Sequence record: LC788705.1
DNA: 64,000 bases
DNA from: Escherichia coli phage NG_A1
Strand: one strand, 5' to 3'
The stretch's first letter is position 1, and the number at the start of each line of letters is the position of its first letter. Under the pieces are notes generated by a model. The model was not told the DNA's origin. It saw only the letters and a program-made list of their open reading frames with translations, and did no database searches. Positions 42,742-46,306 of the stretch are shown here, in pieces. A program made the position numbers and the translations under genes.

Positions 42742-42770
42742 TTGCTAAATGCTTATAAATTCTGTATAAT
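42742..42770 (+). promoter_or_regulatory. Early-type promoter at the head of the tRNA region
   Basis: TTGCTAaatgcttataaattctgTATAAT. Confidence 0.65.
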
Positions 42771-43007
42771 ATATTCATAAATTAGAGAACAGCGAGCCGA
42801 TTACGCTGAACTTGTCTTAATGTAAGATGCGTCGAGCACTAAGATTCGTTGAATAGAGTCGGTGGGTTAGTTGTAAAACTAGTACACAGGGGGCGGCAAT
42901 CCCGGTTAGTGGCTAGAACGTGTAAAATGAGGCGTCTGAAACCTCTCCCCTAAACTCTTCTCTAATTTATAAATAGTGGGGTGTGGAAATCACTTATGTA
43001 GTAACAC

Positions 43008-43080
43008 TGCCGTCCTAGTATAATTGGTATTATCAAGCCGTAACTGGTGGAAGATGTAGGTTCGAATCCTACGGTCGGTA
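43008..43080 (+). ncRNA. tRNA-like element (canonical T-arm, imperfect acceptor pairing)
   Basis: T-arm gtagg-ttcgaat-cctac at 43056-43072, D-loop-like aattggta; no 7-bp acceptor helix found. Confidence 0.25.
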
Positions 43081-43589
43081 AGAACTGGATAACTGATGCT
43101 TTTAATGTAAAAGCTTCCGAGGTTAGTTGCGCACTGCCTAAACCACGCGGTAGTTGGTTCCAGACTAACCAACCAGTCTGCTGAATAGTTTTATTACGAT
43201 TTAACTATGTCCAGGCTAAAGAAGAACTTTAGAAGGTATTCTAGGATAGTGAAGTTCTTTCTCCATATCGGAGTAGTTTTTCAAGCTATCCACAAAGTGG
43301 GAAATGCTGACATGAGAGATGTCACTAATGGTGCACAATAGCACAGGTAATTCGCGATAACTCCTGTTGAGTAGCAGCAAAAGGTGGGAAGTCATGACCC
43401 CAAGCCTAACCGAGTCCTCAATATACCGCAGGACATAACTACTAAGTCACCCTGACTTAAACTGGAAAATAATAGACGTTACTGTATTTTGTCTTGAAAT
43501 ACTTAATGAGTGAGACTTATGACTCTCCCGGTATCGTCTGTATTTTTAAGAGTTTTTACGAGAGTTCTTAAAAATACTTAAACGGGGTG

Positions 43590-43657
43590 TAGTCTAAGGG
43601 AGAGGCAGGAGTCTTCTAAATTCCTTTATGCAGGTTCGAATCCCTTGTCACGCACCA
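43590..43657 (+). ncRNA. tRNA-like element ending in CCA
   Basis: ggttcgaatcc T-loop at 43633-43643 and ...cgcaCCA 3' end; stems imperfect. Confidence 0.25.
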
Positions 43658-43689
43658 AATTTGATGGTCAGAGTAAATTAAACCTACTA

Positions 43690-43733
43690 TCTCGGTTGAG
43701 CTGTTTTAATGGGTTCGAATCCCAGCGAGGCGT
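43690..43733 (+). ncRNA. tRNA-like minihelix (T-arm plus short acceptor-like stem)
   Basis: ctcg...tggg-ttcgaat-ccca-g-cgag. Confidence 0.2.
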
Positions 43734-43782
43734 AACTGCCTGGTGTGATAGAGGCATCATTCCACTAACATTGGAAAAACTA

Positions 43783-44013
43783 ATGAAACGAAAATTAAAA
43801 AAGTCTTATATAATTAAGATAAATAAGCTACGAAGTAGGGCAAAAGGATGGCCACTTCGAATATTAATTGCGGATAACCATACTAGATACCATGCGGAAC
43901 AACGTCATTACAAACAGTGGGAGTCATACTGCCGCTCAAAAGCAGGTCGTTTAGATGGATCTTATGAGTTTCTATTTGGTAAAAAGCCTACTAGAGTAGC
44001 TTTAGGTAATTAA
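43783..44013 (+). CDS. Small basic hypothetical protein in the tRNA region
   Basis: ORF from ATG 43783 (track ORF 43645..44013 begins inside tRNA-like sequence). Confidence 0.3.
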   Translation: MKRKLKKSYIIKINKLRSRAKGWPLRILIADNHTRYHAEQRHYKQWESYCRSKAGRLDGSYEFLFGKKPTRVALGN

Positions 44014-44018
44014 TACTT

Positions 44019-44109
44019 GGAAGAGCAAATCGAATTGGCGACGAAAACCGCTTGGAAAGTGGCTGACTGGTAAAACGGCTTGAGAGTTCAAATCTCTCCT
44101 CTTCCGCCA
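44019..44109 (+). tRNA. Type II tRNA, probably tRNA-Ser (anticodon GGA tentative)
   Basis: 7-bp acceptor ggaagag/ctcttcc, discriminator G, CCA; T-arm gagag-ttcaaat-ctctc; 91 nt with long variable arm. Confidence 0.5.
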
Positions 44110-44121
44110 AACAATTTATAT

Positions 44122-44216
44122 GGTAGGTCAATCCAACGGCTGGCGCTGGACTCCGACTTGAAATCGGTTGATCGTAGTGATACGGTGTAAGGGTTCGATC
44201 CCCTTACCTACCTCCA
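44122..44216 (+). tRNA. tRNA-Ser (UGA), type II
   Basis: Acceptor ggtaggt/acctacc, CCA; anticodon loop cTTGAaa on stem ccga/tcgg; T-arm aaggg-ttcgatc-ccctt. Confidence 0.55.
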
Positions 44217-44221
44217 AATCT

Positions 44222-44352
44222 TGGAATATGCCGGAATTGGTAGACGGGACTGCCGAATAGGTTTACTAGGAACATCCACTCCTAGAAATATACCTTAAAA
44301 GCGGTTGAGTTAAATGGTCTAACTCATGAAGGTTCAAGCCCTTCTATTCCTT
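44222..44352 (+). ncRNA. Atypical tRNA-like element, about 131 nt
   Basis: Leu/Tyr-type D-arm ccggaattggtagacgg, T-arm gaagg-ttcaagc-ccttc, acceptor-like tggaata/tattcct, but about 80 nt between D- and T-arms. Confidence 0.3.
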
Positions 44353-44581
44353 GATACATCAATGGCTCAAAGTGTAACGGTGCTATTTGATGCTCTTGGA
44401 AAGACTTTCCCGACATGCGTTCGGGGGTAAGCTTCTGAGGCTAGAATAGAAGAGTTTCTGAGAGCCGCCACAATTGAAAATTCGTACTCGTCTTGAGCTG
44501 CATGCAATAGGAGATAACTTGATTAGTATTCTAGAACATGCTAATTGAGGATGGTTTCGCTAACCCTGCGAGTTTTCAATT

Positions 44582-44659
44582 GTGGCTATATCATAATTGG
44601 TTAATGATCCTGATTGTGAATCAGGCCTATGTGGATTCGAATTCCACTAGCCACCCCCA
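44582..44659 (+). tRNA. tRNA-His (GUG)
   Basis: Acceptor gtggcta/tagccac, D-stem tcat/atga, anticodon loop ttGTGaa on stem cctga/tcagg, T-arm gtgga-ttcgaat-tccac, 3' CCCCA. Confidence 0.65.
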
Positions 44660-44684
44660 AATTAACTTAAATAGGAAATAAAAT

Positions 44685-44879
44685 ATGGCTGATTTCTGCA
44701 AACAATGCTCCATTGATATGTGGGGCAGAGATACTGGTGATCTTTCTGGGCTGATTACAGAAGCCGAAGTCAAAGAAGGTTATGGTGCAGTTGTGGTTTG
44801 TGAAGGATGCGGAGTCATTCGAGTAGATCATGAGGGTAAGCGCCTTGAAGAACCTGAGCCAGTTACCCTATTTCCCTAA
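44685..44879 (+). CDS. Small Cys-rich (zinc-ribbon-like) protein
   Basis: 64 aa; CKQC...CEGCG. Confidence 0.4.
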   Translation: MADFCKQCSIDMWGRDTGDLSGLITEAEVKEGYGAVVVCEGCGVIRVDHEGKRLEEPEPVTLFP

Positions 44880-44892
44880 AGTAAAGAATTAT

Positions 44893-44968
44893 TGGGATGT
44901 AGATCAATTGGCAGATCGTCGGCCTCTGACTCCGAAGGTTCCACGTTCGATCCGTGGCATCCCAGCCA
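44893..44968 (+). tRNA. tRNA-Gln (CUG)
   Basis: Acceptor tgggatg/catccca (U1:A72), D-stem gatc/gatc, anticodon loop ctCTGac, T-arm ccacg-ttcgatc-cgtgg, G+CCA. Confidence 0.7.
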
Positions 44969-44974
44969 AATACT

Positions 44975-45050
44975 TGGAGAGTAGTGTAACGGTTAGCACA
45001 ACGGCCTTTGACTCCGTTAATGGTAGGTTCGATTCCTCCTTCTCCAGCCA
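44975..45050 (+). tRNA. tRNA-Gln (UUG)
   Basis: Acceptor tggagag/ttctcca (U1:A72), anticodon loop ctTTGac, T-loop ttcgatt, G+CCA. Confidence 0.7.
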
Positions 45051-45057
45051 AATTAAT

Positions 45058-45132
45058 GCGTGATTAGTTCAGTGGCTAGAATAACTGGCTTCCAACCAGT
45101 AGACACGAGTTCGACTCTCGTATCCCGCACCA
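45058..45132 (+). tRNA. tRNA-Gly (UCC)
   Basis: Acceptor gcgtgat/atcccgc (one mismatch), anticodon stem actgg/ccagt with loop ctTCCaa, T-arm acgag-ttcgact-ctcgt, A+CCA. Confidence 0.7.
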
Positions 45133-45146
45133 AATAAGGAAACACT

Positions 45147-45398
45147 ATGCACGTTTTTGAGTTTCGTAATAAAAGTACTGATAAGCGAGTTATCATTATT
45201 GGAGAAACATATCGAGCATATGAACAAACTGATGGCTCTGTTATCTTGAATGATGAGAAAGGAGGTTTTAGCTTTTATCCAGAAGAACCTTATGAAGAGT
45301 TTCGAAAACAATTTAACCTAGACTGGAGAAAGCATTTAAACACTGTTGCTTCATCTGTAGTATTGCCAACTACCAGTACTGTACTCTCTAATGGCTGA
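45147..45398 (+). CDS. Hypothetical protein
   Basis: 83-aa ORF after AAGGAAA. Confidence 0.4.
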   Translation: MHVFEFRNKSTDKRVIIIGETYRAYEQTDGSVILNDEKGGFSFYPEEPYEEFRKQFNLDWRKHLNTVASSVVLPTTSTVLSNG

Positions 45399-45555
45399 CA
45401 ACCTAAAAGTAAAGATTGATAAACAAAAGAAACGTGTAGAAGTAGAGATTGGTGAAGAACGTGTTGCCTTTACTTTTGAATTTCTACAGCAAATGGCAAT
45501 GGCAGTTATGACTGATAAGTCTCCTGTTATTGAAAAAGAAATCCCGTTGAAATAA
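45391..45555 (+). CDS. Small hypothetical protein (54 aa)
   Basis: ATG 45391 overlapping previous ORF end; hairpin 45541-45565 follows. Confidence 0.3.
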   Translation: MADNLKVKIDKQKKRVEVEIGEERVAFTFEFLQQMAMAVMTDKSPVIEKEIPLK

Positions 45556-45565
45556 CGGGATCATC

Positions 45566-45640
45566 GCTCCTAAAGCATTGCTGGCGATGCAGTTGCCTTG
45601 TAAGCATCTGAACCGGGTTCGATTCCTGGTGGGAGCACCA
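45566..45640 (+). tRNA. tRNA-Thr (UGU)
   Basis: Acceptor gctccta/tgggagc, D-stem gcat/atgc, anticodon loop ctTGTaa, T-arm ccggg-ttcgatt-cctgg, A+CCA. Confidence 0.65.
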
Positions 45641-45655
45641 AATTTAAAAATTCAT

Positions 45656-45684
45656 TTGCCTTCTCTCTTATTTATTGTTATAAT
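45656..45684 (+). promoter_or_regulatory. Early-type promoter
   Basis: TTGCCTtctctcttatttattgtTATAAT. Confidence 0.6.
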
Positions 45685-45714
45685 ATTTATATAAATTAAT
45701 GAGAGGGAAACCAA

Positions 45715-46005
45715 ATGAAACGTTATCTTTCTATTGTATTCCAAACTGGTGGTCAAAGATATACCTATGAATTTCCATCTTCTTGGAAAATCAAAGAAGG
45801 TGATCAAGTAGTAGTGTTAACACCGCGTGAAGGGTATAAAGTAGTAATGGTTAAACAAGTATTCCCAAAAGATCATGAACCAGCTAAAGGCATTCGCTAT
45901 AAGATGATTCATGGTGTGGTCCGTCAAGTACCACGAACTGAGGTAGAAGTAGATAAGACTGGAGAAACTAAATTCCATTATACTTCTTACTTAGATAGTG
46001 TGTGA
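45715..46005 (+). CDS. Hypothetical protein
   Basis: 96-aa ORF with GAGAGGG RBS. Confidence 0.5.
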   Translation: MKRYLSIVFQTGGQRYTYEFPSSWKIKEGDQVVVLTPREGYKVVMVKQVFPKDHEPAKGIRYKMIHGVVRQVPRTEVEVDKTGETKFHYTSYLDSV

Positions 46006-46020
46006 TGTAAATATTCTAAT

Positions 46021-46097
46021 ACTTCGGTAGCTTAGCGATCTAAAGCACCCGGCTGATAACCGAGAGATCGGGGGTTTAAATCCCTCCCGGAGTACCA
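46021..46097 (+). tRNA. tRNA-Ile (GAU)
   Basis: Acceptor acttcgg/ccggagt, D-stem gctt/aagc, anticodon loop ctGATaa, T-arm ggggg-tttaaat-ccctc, A+CCA. Confidence 0.6.
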
Positions 46098-46193
46098 AAT
46101 TTAGGAATTAAGACTATGCGTCCAGGAAAGTTTAAAAAAGCTAATTGGTCTAAAGAGTATAAAGAATACTTACTTAGTCTAGTAAAACATAAC

Positions 46194-46269
46194 AGTTAGT
46201 TGGCAGAGTGGTTATGCACCTCCTTCATACGGAGCGACTACAGTGGTTCAAATCCACTACTAACTACCA
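46194..46269 (+). tRNA. tRNA-Met (CAU); could be initiator or a lysidine-modified Ile isoacceptor
   Basis: Exact acceptor agttagt/actaact, anticodon loop ttCATac, T-arm agtgg-ttcaaat-ccact, A+CCA. Confidence 0.6.
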
Positions 46270-46306
46270 TTAAAAGAGCTAGAGATAGCTAAATTTAGGA
46301 GCAGCT

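What the first reader, a model, noticed from the sequence alone, without database searches (positions are those of the whole stretch)
44222..44352. 131-nt element with tRNA D-arm and T-arm separated by an ~80-nt insert
A Leu/Tyr-type D-arm (ccggaattggtagacgg) and a T-arm (gaagg-ttcaagc-ccttc) are flanked by an acceptor-like pairing (tggaata/tattcct), but are too far apart for a normal tRNA. Candidates are a tRNA with an insertion or intron, a tRNA pseudogene, or two overlapping RNA structures.
Basis: seen in the sequence. Interest (0 to 1): 0.45.

Follow-up and report, generated by a model that had tools for sequence, protein, structure and literature searches.

The report
T5-phage RNA1, a tRNA-like RNA
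The flagged 131 bases are this phage's copy of "RNA1", a small RNA of T5-like phages that was annotated about twenty years ago and still has no known function; it keeps the upper half of a leucine tRNA but carries a long, conserved structured arm in place of the anticodon arm, so it is neither an intron-containing tRNA nor a dead gene.

Summary
Window 44222-44352 (+) holds a class II (Leu-type) D-arm, a T-arm and a 7-position acceptor pairing, 80 nt further apart than in a normal tRNA. The window is a T5-like phage. The element is the orthologue (95% identical, same neighbours) of "rna1/RNA1", which curated T5-group GenBank records annotate as a "tRNA-like RNA with unknown functions". Standard tools miss it. 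Intron-aware ARAGORN calls tRNA-Leu(UAA) with a 40-nt intron, but in homologues from four phage genera the same program calls Phe(AAA) or Val(AAC). The CUUAAAA "anticodon loop" is therefore specific to the window/T5 type. The "intron" is the best-conserved part: three covarying helices capped by an invariant 8-nt loop, ACAUCCAC. A second invariant loop, AAUGGUC, caps the enlarged variable arm. Over the whole structure 95% of cells pair and 15 pairs show compensatory changes, against 1-3 in slid controls. Unlike all ten neighbouring tRNAs it encodes no CCA, and it has a U1·U72 mismatch and a U discriminator. Best reading: a non-decoding, tRNA-Leu-derived small RNA, cut from the tRNA operon by tRNA-processing enzymes, that acts through its two invariant loops on an unknown partner. 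The function is inferred, not shown. It is already known and of modest interest.

The parts
44222..44352 (+). Whole RNA1 orthologue (tRNA-like RNA): 131 nt from acceptor position 1 to the discriminator
   Evidence: ARAGORN -i call at exactly these coordinates. Model R1 scores 152 bits. 95% identical to the annotated T5 rna1.
44222..44228 (+). Acceptor stem, 5' strand (UGGAAUA); U1 faces U72
   Evidence: Pairs 2-7 are kept through compensatory changes in 5 of 7 pairs. Pair 1-72 is U.U in 20 of 24 sequences and G.U in 4.
44231..44247 (+). Class II (Leu-type) D-arm: 3-bp stem CCG/CGG and loop GAAUUGGUAGA containing G18 G19
   Evidence: Nearly invariant in the alignment; the one change keeps the stem paired (G-C to G-U). 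T5 and T4 tRNA-Leu are the best-scoring ordinary tRNAs against the model.
44249..44253 (+). Long arm, helix a, 5' strand (ACUGC); the anticodon-stem equivalent, pairs with 44301-44305
   Evidence: 3 of 5 pairs show compensatory changes; 99% of cells paired.
44254..44293 (+). The 40 nt that ARAGORN labels 'intron'; in fact internal loops plus helices b and c and the apical loop
44259..44262 (+). Long arm, helix b, 5' strand (AGGU), pairs with 44292-44295 (ACCU)
   Evidence: 2 of 4 pairs show compensatory changes.
44266..44271 (+). Long arm, helix c, 5' strand (CUAGGA), pairs with 44280-44285 (UCCUAG)
   Evidence: 4 of 6 pairs show compensatory changes.
44272..44279 (+). Apical 8-nt loop ACAUCCAC, invariant in all 24 distinct sequences of the alignment
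   Evidence: Invariant columns A51-C58. One T5 record, not in the alignment, reads ACAUCCGC.
44294..44300 (+). CUUAAAA, the pseudo-anticodon loop that makes ARAGORN call Leu(UAA). Its first two bases are paired in helix b. Not conserved outside the T5/window type.
44301..44305 (+). Long arm, helix a, 3' strand (GCGGU)
44307..44325 (+). Enlarged variable-arm hairpin: 6-bp stem GAGUUA/UAACUC and invariant 7-nt loop AAUGGUC (44313-44319)
   Evidence: 100% of cells paired; pair 90-102 occurs as A-U, U-A and C-G; loop invariant.
44328..44344 (+). T-arm GAAGG-UUCAAGC-CCUUC, with T54, psi55, C56 and A58 equivalents invariant
44345..44352 (+). Acceptor stem, 3' strand (UAUUCCU) and discriminator U. 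No CCA follows (next bases are GAU).
   Evidence: Sequence. All neighbouring tRNAs encode CCA.

Best explanation
The element is this phage's orthologue of T5 'RNA1'. It is a small structured RNA derived from a class II tRNA-Leu that no longer decodes. Shown here: it keeps a complete tRNA upper half (acceptor stem, Leu-type D-arm, T-arm, and the nucleotides that form the tRNA elbow). Its anticodon arm is replaced by a three-helix arm about 40 nt longer, ending in an invariant ACAUCCAC loop. Its variable arm is enlarged and ends in an invariant AAUGGUC loop. All helices are maintained by compensatory substitutions across four phage genera. Inferred: it is transcribed with the early tRNA cluster. 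Its tRNA-like frame lets host RNase P and the 3' tRNA-processing nucleases cut it out and keep it stable. It does not serve as an elongator tRNA, because it has no usable anticodon, no encoded CCA, a U1.U72 mismatch and U73 where LeuRS needs A73. The two invariant loops are contact surfaces for an unidentified partner. The leading speculation is a tRNA-binding host or phage protein, for example a tRNA-targeting defence nuclease for which it would act as a decoy. This last step is the least supported.
For: Identity: the window is 99.8% identical to T5-like phages. The element is 95% identical to the stretch annotated rna1 in T5 AY692264, and homologous to the 'RNA1: tRNA-like RNA with unknown functions' of AJ604531, with the same order tRNA-Ser, RNA1, RNA I, RNA III, tRNA-His. 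Structure: 95.0% of cells paired against 39-50% when partners are slid. 15 pairs have changes on both sides against 1-3 in slid controls, and 0 of 500 shuffles reach the observed values. Helices b and c, inside the 'intron', show compensatory changes in 6 of 10 pairs. RNAalifold independently finds the same arms apart from the D-arm. Not decoding: ARAGORN -i gives Leu-taa, Phe-aaa or Val-aac depending on the homologue. U8, A14, A15, G18, G19, the T-loop and both extra loops are invariant, but the internal-loop strands are not. tRNA-Leu origin: T5 tRNA-Leu (41 bits) and T4 tRNA-Leu (41.6 bits) are the best ordinary tRNAs against model R1. Tandem-tRNA context: the element starts 6 nt after the CCA of tRNA-Ser. 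There is one promoter-like site upstream and no convincing terminator. Selection independent of neighbours: RNA1 is present without RNA I and RNA III in EPS7-type, Klebsiella and Pectobacterium phages, and it is kept in this phage's very reduced tRNA cluster. No ORF spans it. It is phage-restricted: 0 matches in 185,579 bacterial and archaeal genomes.
Against: No expression, end-mapping or binding data were available, so the processing route and the trans-acting role are inferences. The alignment holds only about five independent sequence types, so the cell counts overstate the number of evolutionary events. The terminal helix can continue beyond the acceptor stem: 2-3 bp after a tandem U.U in T5 types and 7 bp in Klebsiella types. 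That would hinder RNase P, or could mean the mature ends lie elsewhere; the GenBank annotation starts 2 nt earlier and ends 11 nt later. The window/T5 type does carry a perfect CUUAAAA loop next to a 5-bp stem. No complementary target for either loop was found in the window, and no host tRNA look-alike was found by BLAST, so no partner is identified.
Confidence: 0.7

Rival explanations
1. It is only a processing or punctuation element. The tRNA-like fold exists to direct RNase P and 3' nucleases so that neighbouring RNAs (tRNA-Ser upstream, RNA I, RNA III and tRNA-His downstream, or small ORF mRNAs) are released. The excised piece has no function of its own.
For: It sits in a tightly packed array with spacers of 6-12 nt. 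tRNA-like handles used purely for processing are well established elsewhere (mascRNA, gammaherpesvirus TMERs; own knowledge). No partner or target was found.
Against: A cleavage handle needs only the acceptor/T-arm half. Yet the two extra apical loops are invariant across four genera while the stems beneath them have turned over by compensatory change. The flanks it would have to process differ between lineages: RNA I and RNA III are absent in EPS7, Klebsiella and Pectobacterium types, and an ORF replaces tRNA-Ser upstream in phage 5.
Confidence: 0.15
2. It is a real tRNA-Leu(UAA) gene interrupted by a 40-nt intron. The intron is removed after transcription to give a 91-nt class II tRNA that reads UUA, at least in the T5/window sequence type.
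For: ARAGORN -i finds a canonical 5-bp stem plus a CUUAAAA loop once 44254-44293 is removed. T5 and this phage have no other tRNA-Leu(UAA). A second, unrelated phage contig has an insert of similar size at the same place.
Against: The homologues yield Phe(AAA) or Val(AAC) with non-canonical loops, so no consistent mature tRNA exists for the family. By outgroup comparison (Pectobacterium and Klebsiella types) the CUUAAAA arrangement looks derived. The insert is far too short for a group I intron and there is no RF00028 hit at E<=10. The internal loops are 5/5-6 nt and 3/6 nt, not a bulge-helix-bulge. No tRNA-splicing endonuclease is known in Enterobacteria (own knowledge). There is no encoded CCA, a U1.U72 mismatch, and U73 instead of the A73 that LeuRS needs (identity rule from own knowledge).
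Confidence: 0.07
3. It is a decaying tRNA pseudogene that picked up a random insertion and is drifting, with no function.
For: Standard tRNA finders reject it. It has a 1-72 mismatch and no CCA. Most genome records leave it unannotated.
Against: It is conserved in 492 phage records in at least four genera. 15 of 36 pairs are kept by compensatory substitutions, and two loops are invariant. It is retained in a phage that has lost most of the T5 tRNA set.
Confidence: 0.05
4. It is two separate adjacent or overlapping RNAs, or two ordinary tRNAs, that only look like one element.
For: Rfam gives a weak tRNA alignment to the 3' 69 nt alone (21.6 bits).
Against: That alignment is below threshold (29 bits) and uses a mis-registered acceptor strand. 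The outermost helix, 44222-28 with 44345-51, covaries and encloses everything. ARAGORN finds one gene, not two.
Confidence: 0.02

Closest known systems
T5-group 'RNA1' (gene rna1) as annotated in GenBank AY692264 (T5 st0) and AJ604531 (Salmonella phage 5): 'tRNA-like RNA with unknown functions'
   Same: Same locus, same neighbours (tRNA-Ser ... RNA1, RNA I, RNA III, tRNA-His). 95% identity to the T5 copy. Same structure by covariance model.
   Different: Nothing essential; this is an orthologue. The GenBank feature is drawn slightly longer (144-145 nt, from 2 nt upstream to the start of RNA I). In this phage tRNA-Ser, not a small ORF, lies directly upstream.
Class II tRNA-Leu (host and phage)
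   Same: 3-bp D-stem with a GGAAUYGGUAGAC loop, a UUCAAGY T-loop, a long variable arm, the tertiary nucleotides U8, A14, A15-U48, G18, G19. Phage tRNA-Leu genes are the top-scoring ordinary tRNAs against the RNA1 model.
   Different: The anticodon arm is replaced by a three-helix arm of about 57 nt with no conserved anticodon. The variable arm has a 7-nt invariant loop. U1.U72 mismatch, U73 discriminator, no encoded CCA. Fails the Rfam tRNA threshold.
Phage T4 species 1 RNA (rnaC), a stable RNA of unknown function beside the T4 tRNA cluster
   Same: A phage-encoded RNA of about 140 nt at the edge of a tRNA cluster. Its 3' two-thirds can be drawn as a class II, Leu-like tRNA-like domain with a very long extra arm. 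Its function is likewise unknown.
   Different: No detectable homology: 15.4 bits against R1, below every class of real T4 tRNA. In rnaC the extra sequence is a 45-nt 5' extension, not an elongated anticodon arm.
tRNA-Leu(UAA) genes with a group I intron (cyanobacteria, plastids)
   Same: A tRNA-Leu(UAA)-like gene interrupted in the anticodon loop; this is what the ARAGORN call resembles.
   Different: Those introns are over 200 nt, self-splicing, with a P1-P9 core, and sit between U34 and A35. Here the insert is 40 nt, has no group I signal, sits at 32/33, and the 'exon' loop is not conserved.
Virus- or cell-encoded tRNA-like processing handles and mimics (MHV68 TMER vtRNAs, mascRNA, bacterial YrlA, the tmRNA tRNA-like domain); comparison from own knowledge
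   Same: A tRNA-shaped module that recruits tRNA-processing or tRNA-binding factors, joined to a non-tRNA functional module; not used for decoding.
   Different: Different topology and no homology. In YrlA the ends lie in the Ro-binding stem. tmRNA lacks a D-stem and carries an ORF. Neither ARAGORN nor Rfam sees tmRNA or Y RNA here.

Membership tests
T5-group RNA1 (rna1) tRNA-like RNA | Sequence homology to the annotated rna1 of T5 / Salmonella phage 5 | tested here: met
   95.4% identity over 131 nt to T5 (L039 1516-1646, inside annotated rna1 1505-1648). 86% over 120 nt to phage 5 rna1. R1 scores of 152 bits (window), 152 (T5) and 156 (phage 5).
T5-group RNA1 (rna1) tRNA-like RNA | Position in the tRNA cluster: downstream of the two tRNA-Ser genes, upstream of RNA I, RNA III and tRNA-His | tested here: met
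   Window order is tRNA-Ser 44019-44109, tRNA-Ser 44122-44216, RNA1 44222-44352, RNA I 44364-44470, RNA III 44475-44581, tRNA-His 44582-44657.
T5-group RNA1 (rna1) tRNA-like RNA | Shared secondary structure supported by covariation | tested here: met
   36-pair structure, 95% of cells paired, 15 pairs with compensatory change, controls far lower.
T5-group RNA1 (rna1) tRNA-like RNA | Accumulates as a discrete RNA in infected cells | not testable with these tools
   No RNA data available. GenBank calls RNA I, III, IV and 2H 'stable RNA' but calls RNA1 only 'tRNA-like RNA'.
Canonical decoding tRNA (Rfam RF00005) | Reaches the curated covariance-model threshold | tested here: not met
   Best hit 21.6 bits against a gathering score of 29. 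It covers only 44284-44352 with a mis-registered acceptor. The Klebsiella-phage copy scores 22.5 bits.
Canonical decoding tRNA (Rfam RF00005) | Acceptor, D and T arms, with the nucleotides that build the L-shape (U8, A14, G18 G19, T54-psi55-C56, A58) | tested here: met
   All of these are invariant columns of alignment A1, and the arms pair in every sequence.
Canonical decoding tRNA (Rfam RF00005) | 5-bp anticodon stem closing a 7-nt loop with U33 and an anticodon conserved among orthologues | tested here: not met
   The stem is followed by about 47 nt of helices and loops. After notional intron removal the anticodons are UAA, AAA or AAC depending on the homologue, mostly without U33.
Canonical decoding tRNA (Rfam RF00005) | 3' CCA encoded, as in the other tRNA genes of this cluster | tested here: not met
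   The acceptor is followed by U-GAU. Both tRNA-Ser genes and the Arg, His, Gln (x2), Gly, Thr, Ile and Met genes all end in CCA.
tRNA gene with a group I intron | Self-splicing intron with a group I core (over 200 nt, RF00028) | tested here: not met
   The insert is 40 nt. No Intron_gpI hit even at E<=10 with permissive filters.
tRNA gene with a protein-spliced (bulge-helix-bulge) intron | Two 3-nt bulges on opposite strands separated by a 4-bp helix at the exon-intron junctions | tested here: not met
   The covariation-supported fold has roughly symmetric internal loops of 5/5-6 nt and 3/6 nt flanking helix b.
tRNA gene with a protein-spliced (bulge-helix-bulge) intron | Splicing endonuclease present in host or phage | not tested
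   Not searched here. From general knowledge, no EndA/Sen-type enzyme is known in Enterobacteria or in T5.
T4 species 1 RNA (rnaC) | Homology to rnaC | tested here: not met
   R1 scores rnaC at 15.4 bits, below T4 tRNA-Leu (41.6), Ser (33.8), Gln (19.9) and Thr (17.8).
tmRNA | tRNA-Ala-like domain plus a tag ORF, detected by ARAGORN or RF00023 | tested here: not met
   ARAGORN reports no tmRNA. The only RF00023 hits in the region are fragments of about 10 bits elsewhere.

The most novel reading that the evidence does not exclude
RNA1 is an active tRNA mimic, not a by-product. Its intact tRNA-Leu upper half gets it processed and recognised as a tRNA. The rebuilt anticodon arm and variable arm, with their two invariant loops, let it bind and neutralise, or else hijack, a tRNA-binding factor. 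The most attractive candidate is a tRNA-cleaving antiphage nuclease of the kind now known to act on T5 (PMC13056530). It may also be one example of a wider, unrecognised class of phage RNAs built on a tRNA-Leu frame with lineage-specific replacements of the anticodon arm: T5 RNA1, the 276-kb-contig RNA in L042, L057, and perhaps T4 species 1 RNA.
Probability: 0.2. Interest if true: 0.75.

Novelty: already known. Interest (0 to 1): 0.3.

Why it matters
Phage tRNA clusters are being re-read as counter-defence arsenals against tRNA-cleaving bacterial immunity, and T5 is a main model for that work. RNA1 is a strongly conserved gene in that cluster, found in hundreds of sequenced T5-like phages. 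It is absent from Rfam and usually left unannotated, or is mis-annotated as tRNA-Phe or an intron-containing tRNA or hidden under spurious ORFs. The practical value of this analysis is threefold. It shows that the 'intron' call is an artefact. It gives a covariation-supported structure. And it identifies two invariant loops as the obvious targets for mutagenesis. If RNA1 proved to be a tRNA decoy or a hijacker of a tRNA-binding enzyme, that would be a new type of phage counter-measure. If it is only a processing handle, it is ordinary.

Tried and rejected
1. Default ARAGORN and Rfam at gathering threshold returned nothing at the locus. Permissive Rfam scans of the cluster, of the element alone, and of three homologous loci gave only a sub-threshold, mis-registered tRNA hit.

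2. The intron reading was tested by running ARAGORN -i on eight homologues. The anticodons were inconsistent, so it was rejected as the family-wide explanation.

3. The RNAalifold consensus predicted an alternative D-arm (8-12 with 17-21). I replaced it with the canonical class II D-stem by homology to tRNA-Leu. The D-arm shows no covariation that discriminates between the two.

4. The first IMG/VR pattern scan brought in two chance matches, L020 and L034, which are not homologues and were discarded.

5. T4 rnaC and rnaD were tested as possible homologues and are not.

6. I searched for an antisense target of either invariant loop in the 64-kb window. Only the element itself matched, at or below chance expectation.

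7. BLAST of the notional spliced 91-mer against 5,426 E. coli genomes found no match, so it is not a close copy of a host tRNA.

8. The pattern scan of 185,579 bacterial and archaeal genomes gave 0 matches.

9. A protein-coding explanation fails: no ORF spans the element, and the longest overlapping ORF is 34 aa.

10. Literature searches for T5 RNA1, stable RNAs, tRNA-like RNAs and T5 transcriptomes found nothing on this RNA in the open-access library. The T4 genome review was not held, and no supplementary tables were held for the T5 RNA-end-mapping paper.

11. L040, L047 and L056 share the D-arm sequence but could not be resolved into a convincing tRNA-like fold and were left aside.

Full report
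**What is in the sequence.** Window 44222-44352 (+) reads UGGAAUA-UG-CCG GAAUUGGUAGA CGG-G-ACUGC ... The acceptor has six Watson-Crick pairs plus a U.U at 1-72, and the D-arm end and T-arm start are 80 nt apart. The element lies in a cluster of tRNA genes on the + strand. Default ARAGORN finds eight tRNAs from 43582 to 46269 but not this one. Rfam at its curated thresholds also skips it. At permissive thresholds Rfam gives only a 21.6-bit tRNA hit (cut-off 29) to the 3' 69 nt, in a wrong register. With introns allowed, ARAGORN calls tRNA-Leu(UAA) at exactly 44222-44352: a 91-nt class II tRNA with a 40-nt 'intron' (44254-44293) between positions 32 and 33. That setting is not noisy, giving one intron-type call in 20 dinucleotide-shuffled copies of the 64-kb window.

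**Where the window comes from, and what the locus is called.** The region is 99.8% identical to several T5-like phages (Tequintavirus, Demerecviridae). The element alone has homologues in 492 phage records from Salmonella, Escherichia, Klebsiella, Citrobacter, Shigella, Yersinia and Pectobacterium phages. Most records leave it unannotated. A few place hypothetical ORFs over it, and one calls it a 135-nt 'tRNA-Phe(aaa)'. Two curated records from the Pushchino T5 group do annotate it. AJ604531 (Salmonella phage 5) has misc_RNA rna1, 'RNA1: tRNA-like RNA with unknown functions', 145 nt. It is followed by RNA I, RNA III ('stable RNA with unknown functions') and tRNA-His. AY692264 (T5 st0) has the same series rna1, rnaI, rnaIII, tRNAH. 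The window copy is 95.4% identical to the T5 copy and sits in the same order, with RNA I at 44364-44470 and RNA III at 44475-44581. The finding is therefore an orthologue of a named RNA gene whose function has never been assigned.

**Intron or structured arm?** I extracted homologues from GenBank phages and from IMG/VR and metagenome contigs. They fall into about five sequence types, representing Tequintavirus, Epseptimavirus, Sugarlandvirus and Hongcheonvirus. ARAGORN -i 'splices' them to Leu(UAA) in the window/T5 type, Phe(AAA) in the phage 5, EPS7 and Klebsiella types, and Val(AAC) in the Pectobacterium type. The canonical CUUAAAA loop of the window (44294-44300) is therefore not a family feature. 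The corresponding strand reads CUCAUAAA, CCGAAAAC or CUCGACGG elsewhere. The part ARAGORN discards is the most constrained. In a 24-sequence, 132-column alignment the 8-nt apical loop ACAUCCAC and its closing pairs are invariant.

I tested an explicit structure on this alignment: acceptor; canonical 3-bp class II D-stem; long-arm helices a (5 bp), b (4 bp) and c (6 bp); a 6-bp variable-arm hairpin; and the T-stem. The results were:
- 95.0% of cells form standard pairs, against 39-50% when the 3' partners are slid by 1-3 columns.
- 15 pairs have changes on both sides, against 1-3 for the slid versions.
- None of 500 shuffles reaches the observed pairing, double-change or covariation values.
- Compensatory changes occur in the acceptor (5 of 7 pairs), helix a (3 of 5), helix b (2 of 4), helix c (4 of 6) and the variable-arm hairpin (1 of 6).

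RNAalifold finds the same arms independently, except for the D-arm. In this fold the 'C32 U33' of the supposed anticodon loop are paired in helix b. The caveat is that only about five independent sequence types contribute, so cell counts overstate the number of events. Even so, whole stems have been rewritten. Examples are the acceptor UGGAAUA/UAUUCCU against GAUGCCG/CGGGGUU, and helix c CUAGGA/UCCUAG against GCAGA/UCUGC.

**What kind of tRNA it came from, and why it no longer looks like a working one.** The tertiary-interaction nucleotides U8, A14, A15, U48, G18, G19, the T-loop U-U-C and A58 are all invariant, so a real tRNA elbow is expected. Against the covariance model built from the family (R1), the best ordinary tRNAs are T5 tRNA-Leu(UAG) at 41 bits and T4 tRNA-Leu at 41.6 bits, ahead of T4 tRNA-Ser at 33.8. 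The frame is therefore Leu-type. Four features argue against an elongator role:
- There is no conserved anticodon.
- No CCA is encoded, whereas both tRNA-Ser genes and the Arg, His, two Gln, Gly, Thr, Ile and Met genes of the cluster all encode it.
- The first pair is U.U in 20 of 24 sequences and G.U in the other 4.
- The discriminator is U. From the established identity rules for E. coli LeuRS (own knowledge), A73 is required. Only the Klebsiella-phage type has A.

The insert also fails the tests for known intron types. It is 40 nt with no group I signal, and its internal loops are 5/5-6 and 3/6 nt, not a bulge-helix-bulge.

**Context.** The element begins 6 nt after the CCA of tRNA-Ser(UGA), which is the usual inter-tRNA spacing here. 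There is one good sigma-70-like site upstream (42742-42770). The only terminator-like matches nearby are the T-arm itself and a hairpin inside RNA III, and the count is no higher than in shuffles. Co-transcription with the cluster and release by tRNA-processing enzymes is the natural inference. U at -1 fits RNase P preference (own knowledge). The terminal helix can, however, continue past the acceptor: C-G, U-A and sometimes A-U after a tandem U.U in T5 types, and seven further pairs in Klebsiella types. The true ends therefore need experimental mapping. RNA1 is not tied to its neighbours. RNA I and RNA III are missing next to it in EPS7-type, Klebsiella and Pectobacterium phages. This phage keeps RNA1 even though its tRNA cluster (about 43.0-46.3 kb in the window) lacks the dozen or more tRNA genes that lie between Arg and Ser in T5. 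No ORF spans the element. The pattern is absent from 185,579 bacterial and archaeal genomes.

**Mechanism.** Shown: a conserved, covarying, five-arm tRNA-like fold with two invariant extra loops. Inferred: it is excised and stabilised through its tRNA frame, it does not decode, and the invariant loops are recognition surfaces. I found no partner. There is no complementary site for either loop in the window beyond chance. There is no close host tRNA look-alike. Rfam has no matching family. Because stems drift while the loops stay fixed, I rank a trans-acting role above a pure processing-handle role. tRNA-cleaving defences do act on T5, on both host and phage tRNAs, in the anticodon arm (PMC13056530). 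A decoy or inhibitor role is the most interesting possibility, but it is speculation.

**Comparison with known systems.** Membership in the T5 RNA1 family is met on sequence, synteny and structure. Membership in canonical tRNA, group I-intron tRNA, BHB-intron tRNA, tmRNA and T4 species 1 RNA fails on tested defining features (see the membership table). T4 rnaC is an analogue. It is a stable RNA of unknown function at the edge of a tRNA cluster, and under relaxed ARAGORN settings its 3' two-thirds form a Leu-like class II tRNA-like domain. It is not homologous by R1, scoring 15.4 bits.

**Related elements found on the way.** A 276-kb metagenomic phage contig (L042) encodes, just upstream of two ordinary tRNAs, a 122-127-nt RNA with the same D-arm and T-stem and an encoded CCA, but a different elongated arm in place of the anticodon arm (49.5 bits). 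Another contig (L057) has the same frame around an insert of roughly 100 nt (37.8 bits). These hint at a wider class but were not pursued.

**Verdict.** The intron, pseudogene and two-RNA readings are not supported. The element is the already-annotated but functionally unknown T5 RNA1. Novelty: already known. Interest is modest (0.3). The upside is that the structure and the invariant loops defined here make the function directly testable.

Noticed in passing
window 44364-44470 and 44475-44581 (+): Orthologues of the T5 stable RNAs 'RNA I' and 'RNA III' (92-99% identical to the annotated phage 5 and T5 genes). Both are of unknown function and neither matches any Rfam family. They accompany RNA1 only in a subset of Tequintavirus genomes.
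   Followed up: partly
window 44467-44484 and 44569-44586: An 18-nt inverted repeat, 94% complementary (GCCACAATTGAAAATTCG / CGAGTTTTCAATTGTGGC). It closes the whole of RNA III, and its 3' arm overlaps the first 5 nt of tRNA-His (GTGGC). In the precursor, RNA III folding and tRNA-His acceptor-stem folding are therefore mutually exclusive.
   Followed up: no
window 44019-44109 and 44122-44216 (+): Two class II tRNA-Ser genes (GGA and UGA anticodons by homology to annotated relatives). Default ARAGORN and Rfam's tRNA model both miss them. One scores only as sub-threshold tRNA-Sec (38.3 against 47 bits). The Wang et al. T5 record flags them as pseudogenes, while the Pushchino records treat them as functional.
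   Followed up: partly
window about 43000-46300: This phage's tRNA cluster is much reduced compared with T5. The genes that lie between tRNA-Arg(UCU) and the tRNA-Ser pair in T5 (Ser-AGC, Met, Tyr, Glu, Phe, Cys, Asn, Asp, Pro, fMet, Lys, Val, Ala, Leu) are absent, yet RNA1, RNA I and RNA III are kept.
   Followed up: no
window 43009-43080 and 43582-43657 (+): Two marginal tRNAs on which the tools disagree. 43009-43080 passes Rfam (35.5 bits), but ARAGORN finds it only at a relaxed threshold, as an odd 'Ser(act)'. tRNA-Arg(UCU) at 43582-43657 is called by ARAGORN but scores only 21.2 bits in Rfam and has several acceptor and T-stem mismatches.
   Followed up: no
L042 615-736 (- strand; IMGVR_UViG_3300021166_000052, 276-kb contig): A tRNA-like RNA with the same D-arm and T-stem as RNA1 and an encoded CCA. 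Its acceptor is 7 or 8 bp, and a different extension of about 37 nt replaces the anticodon arm. It lies next to two ordinary tRNAs. This could be a second lineage of the same design.
   Followed up: partly
L057 51-198 (+; Ga0315277_10672458): An AT-rich metagenomic contig with the RNA1-type D-arm, a T-arm and an acceptor-like closing helix around an insert of roughly 100 nt (R1 37.8 bits). ARAGORN finds nothing there.
   Followed up: no
L044 1909-2047 (- strand; phage T4 rnaC, species 1 RNA): Under relaxed ARAGORN settings the 3' 94 nt of T4 species 1 RNA fold as a class II, Leu(UAA)-like tRNA-like domain with a 10-bp extra arm. This makes it a structural analogue of T5 RNA1 without detectable homology.
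   Followed up: partly
L041 992-1122 (IMG copy of a T5 genome): One T5 record reads ACAUCCGC instead of the otherwise invariant ACAUCCAC apical loop. This is either a strain difference or a sequencing error.
   Followed up: no
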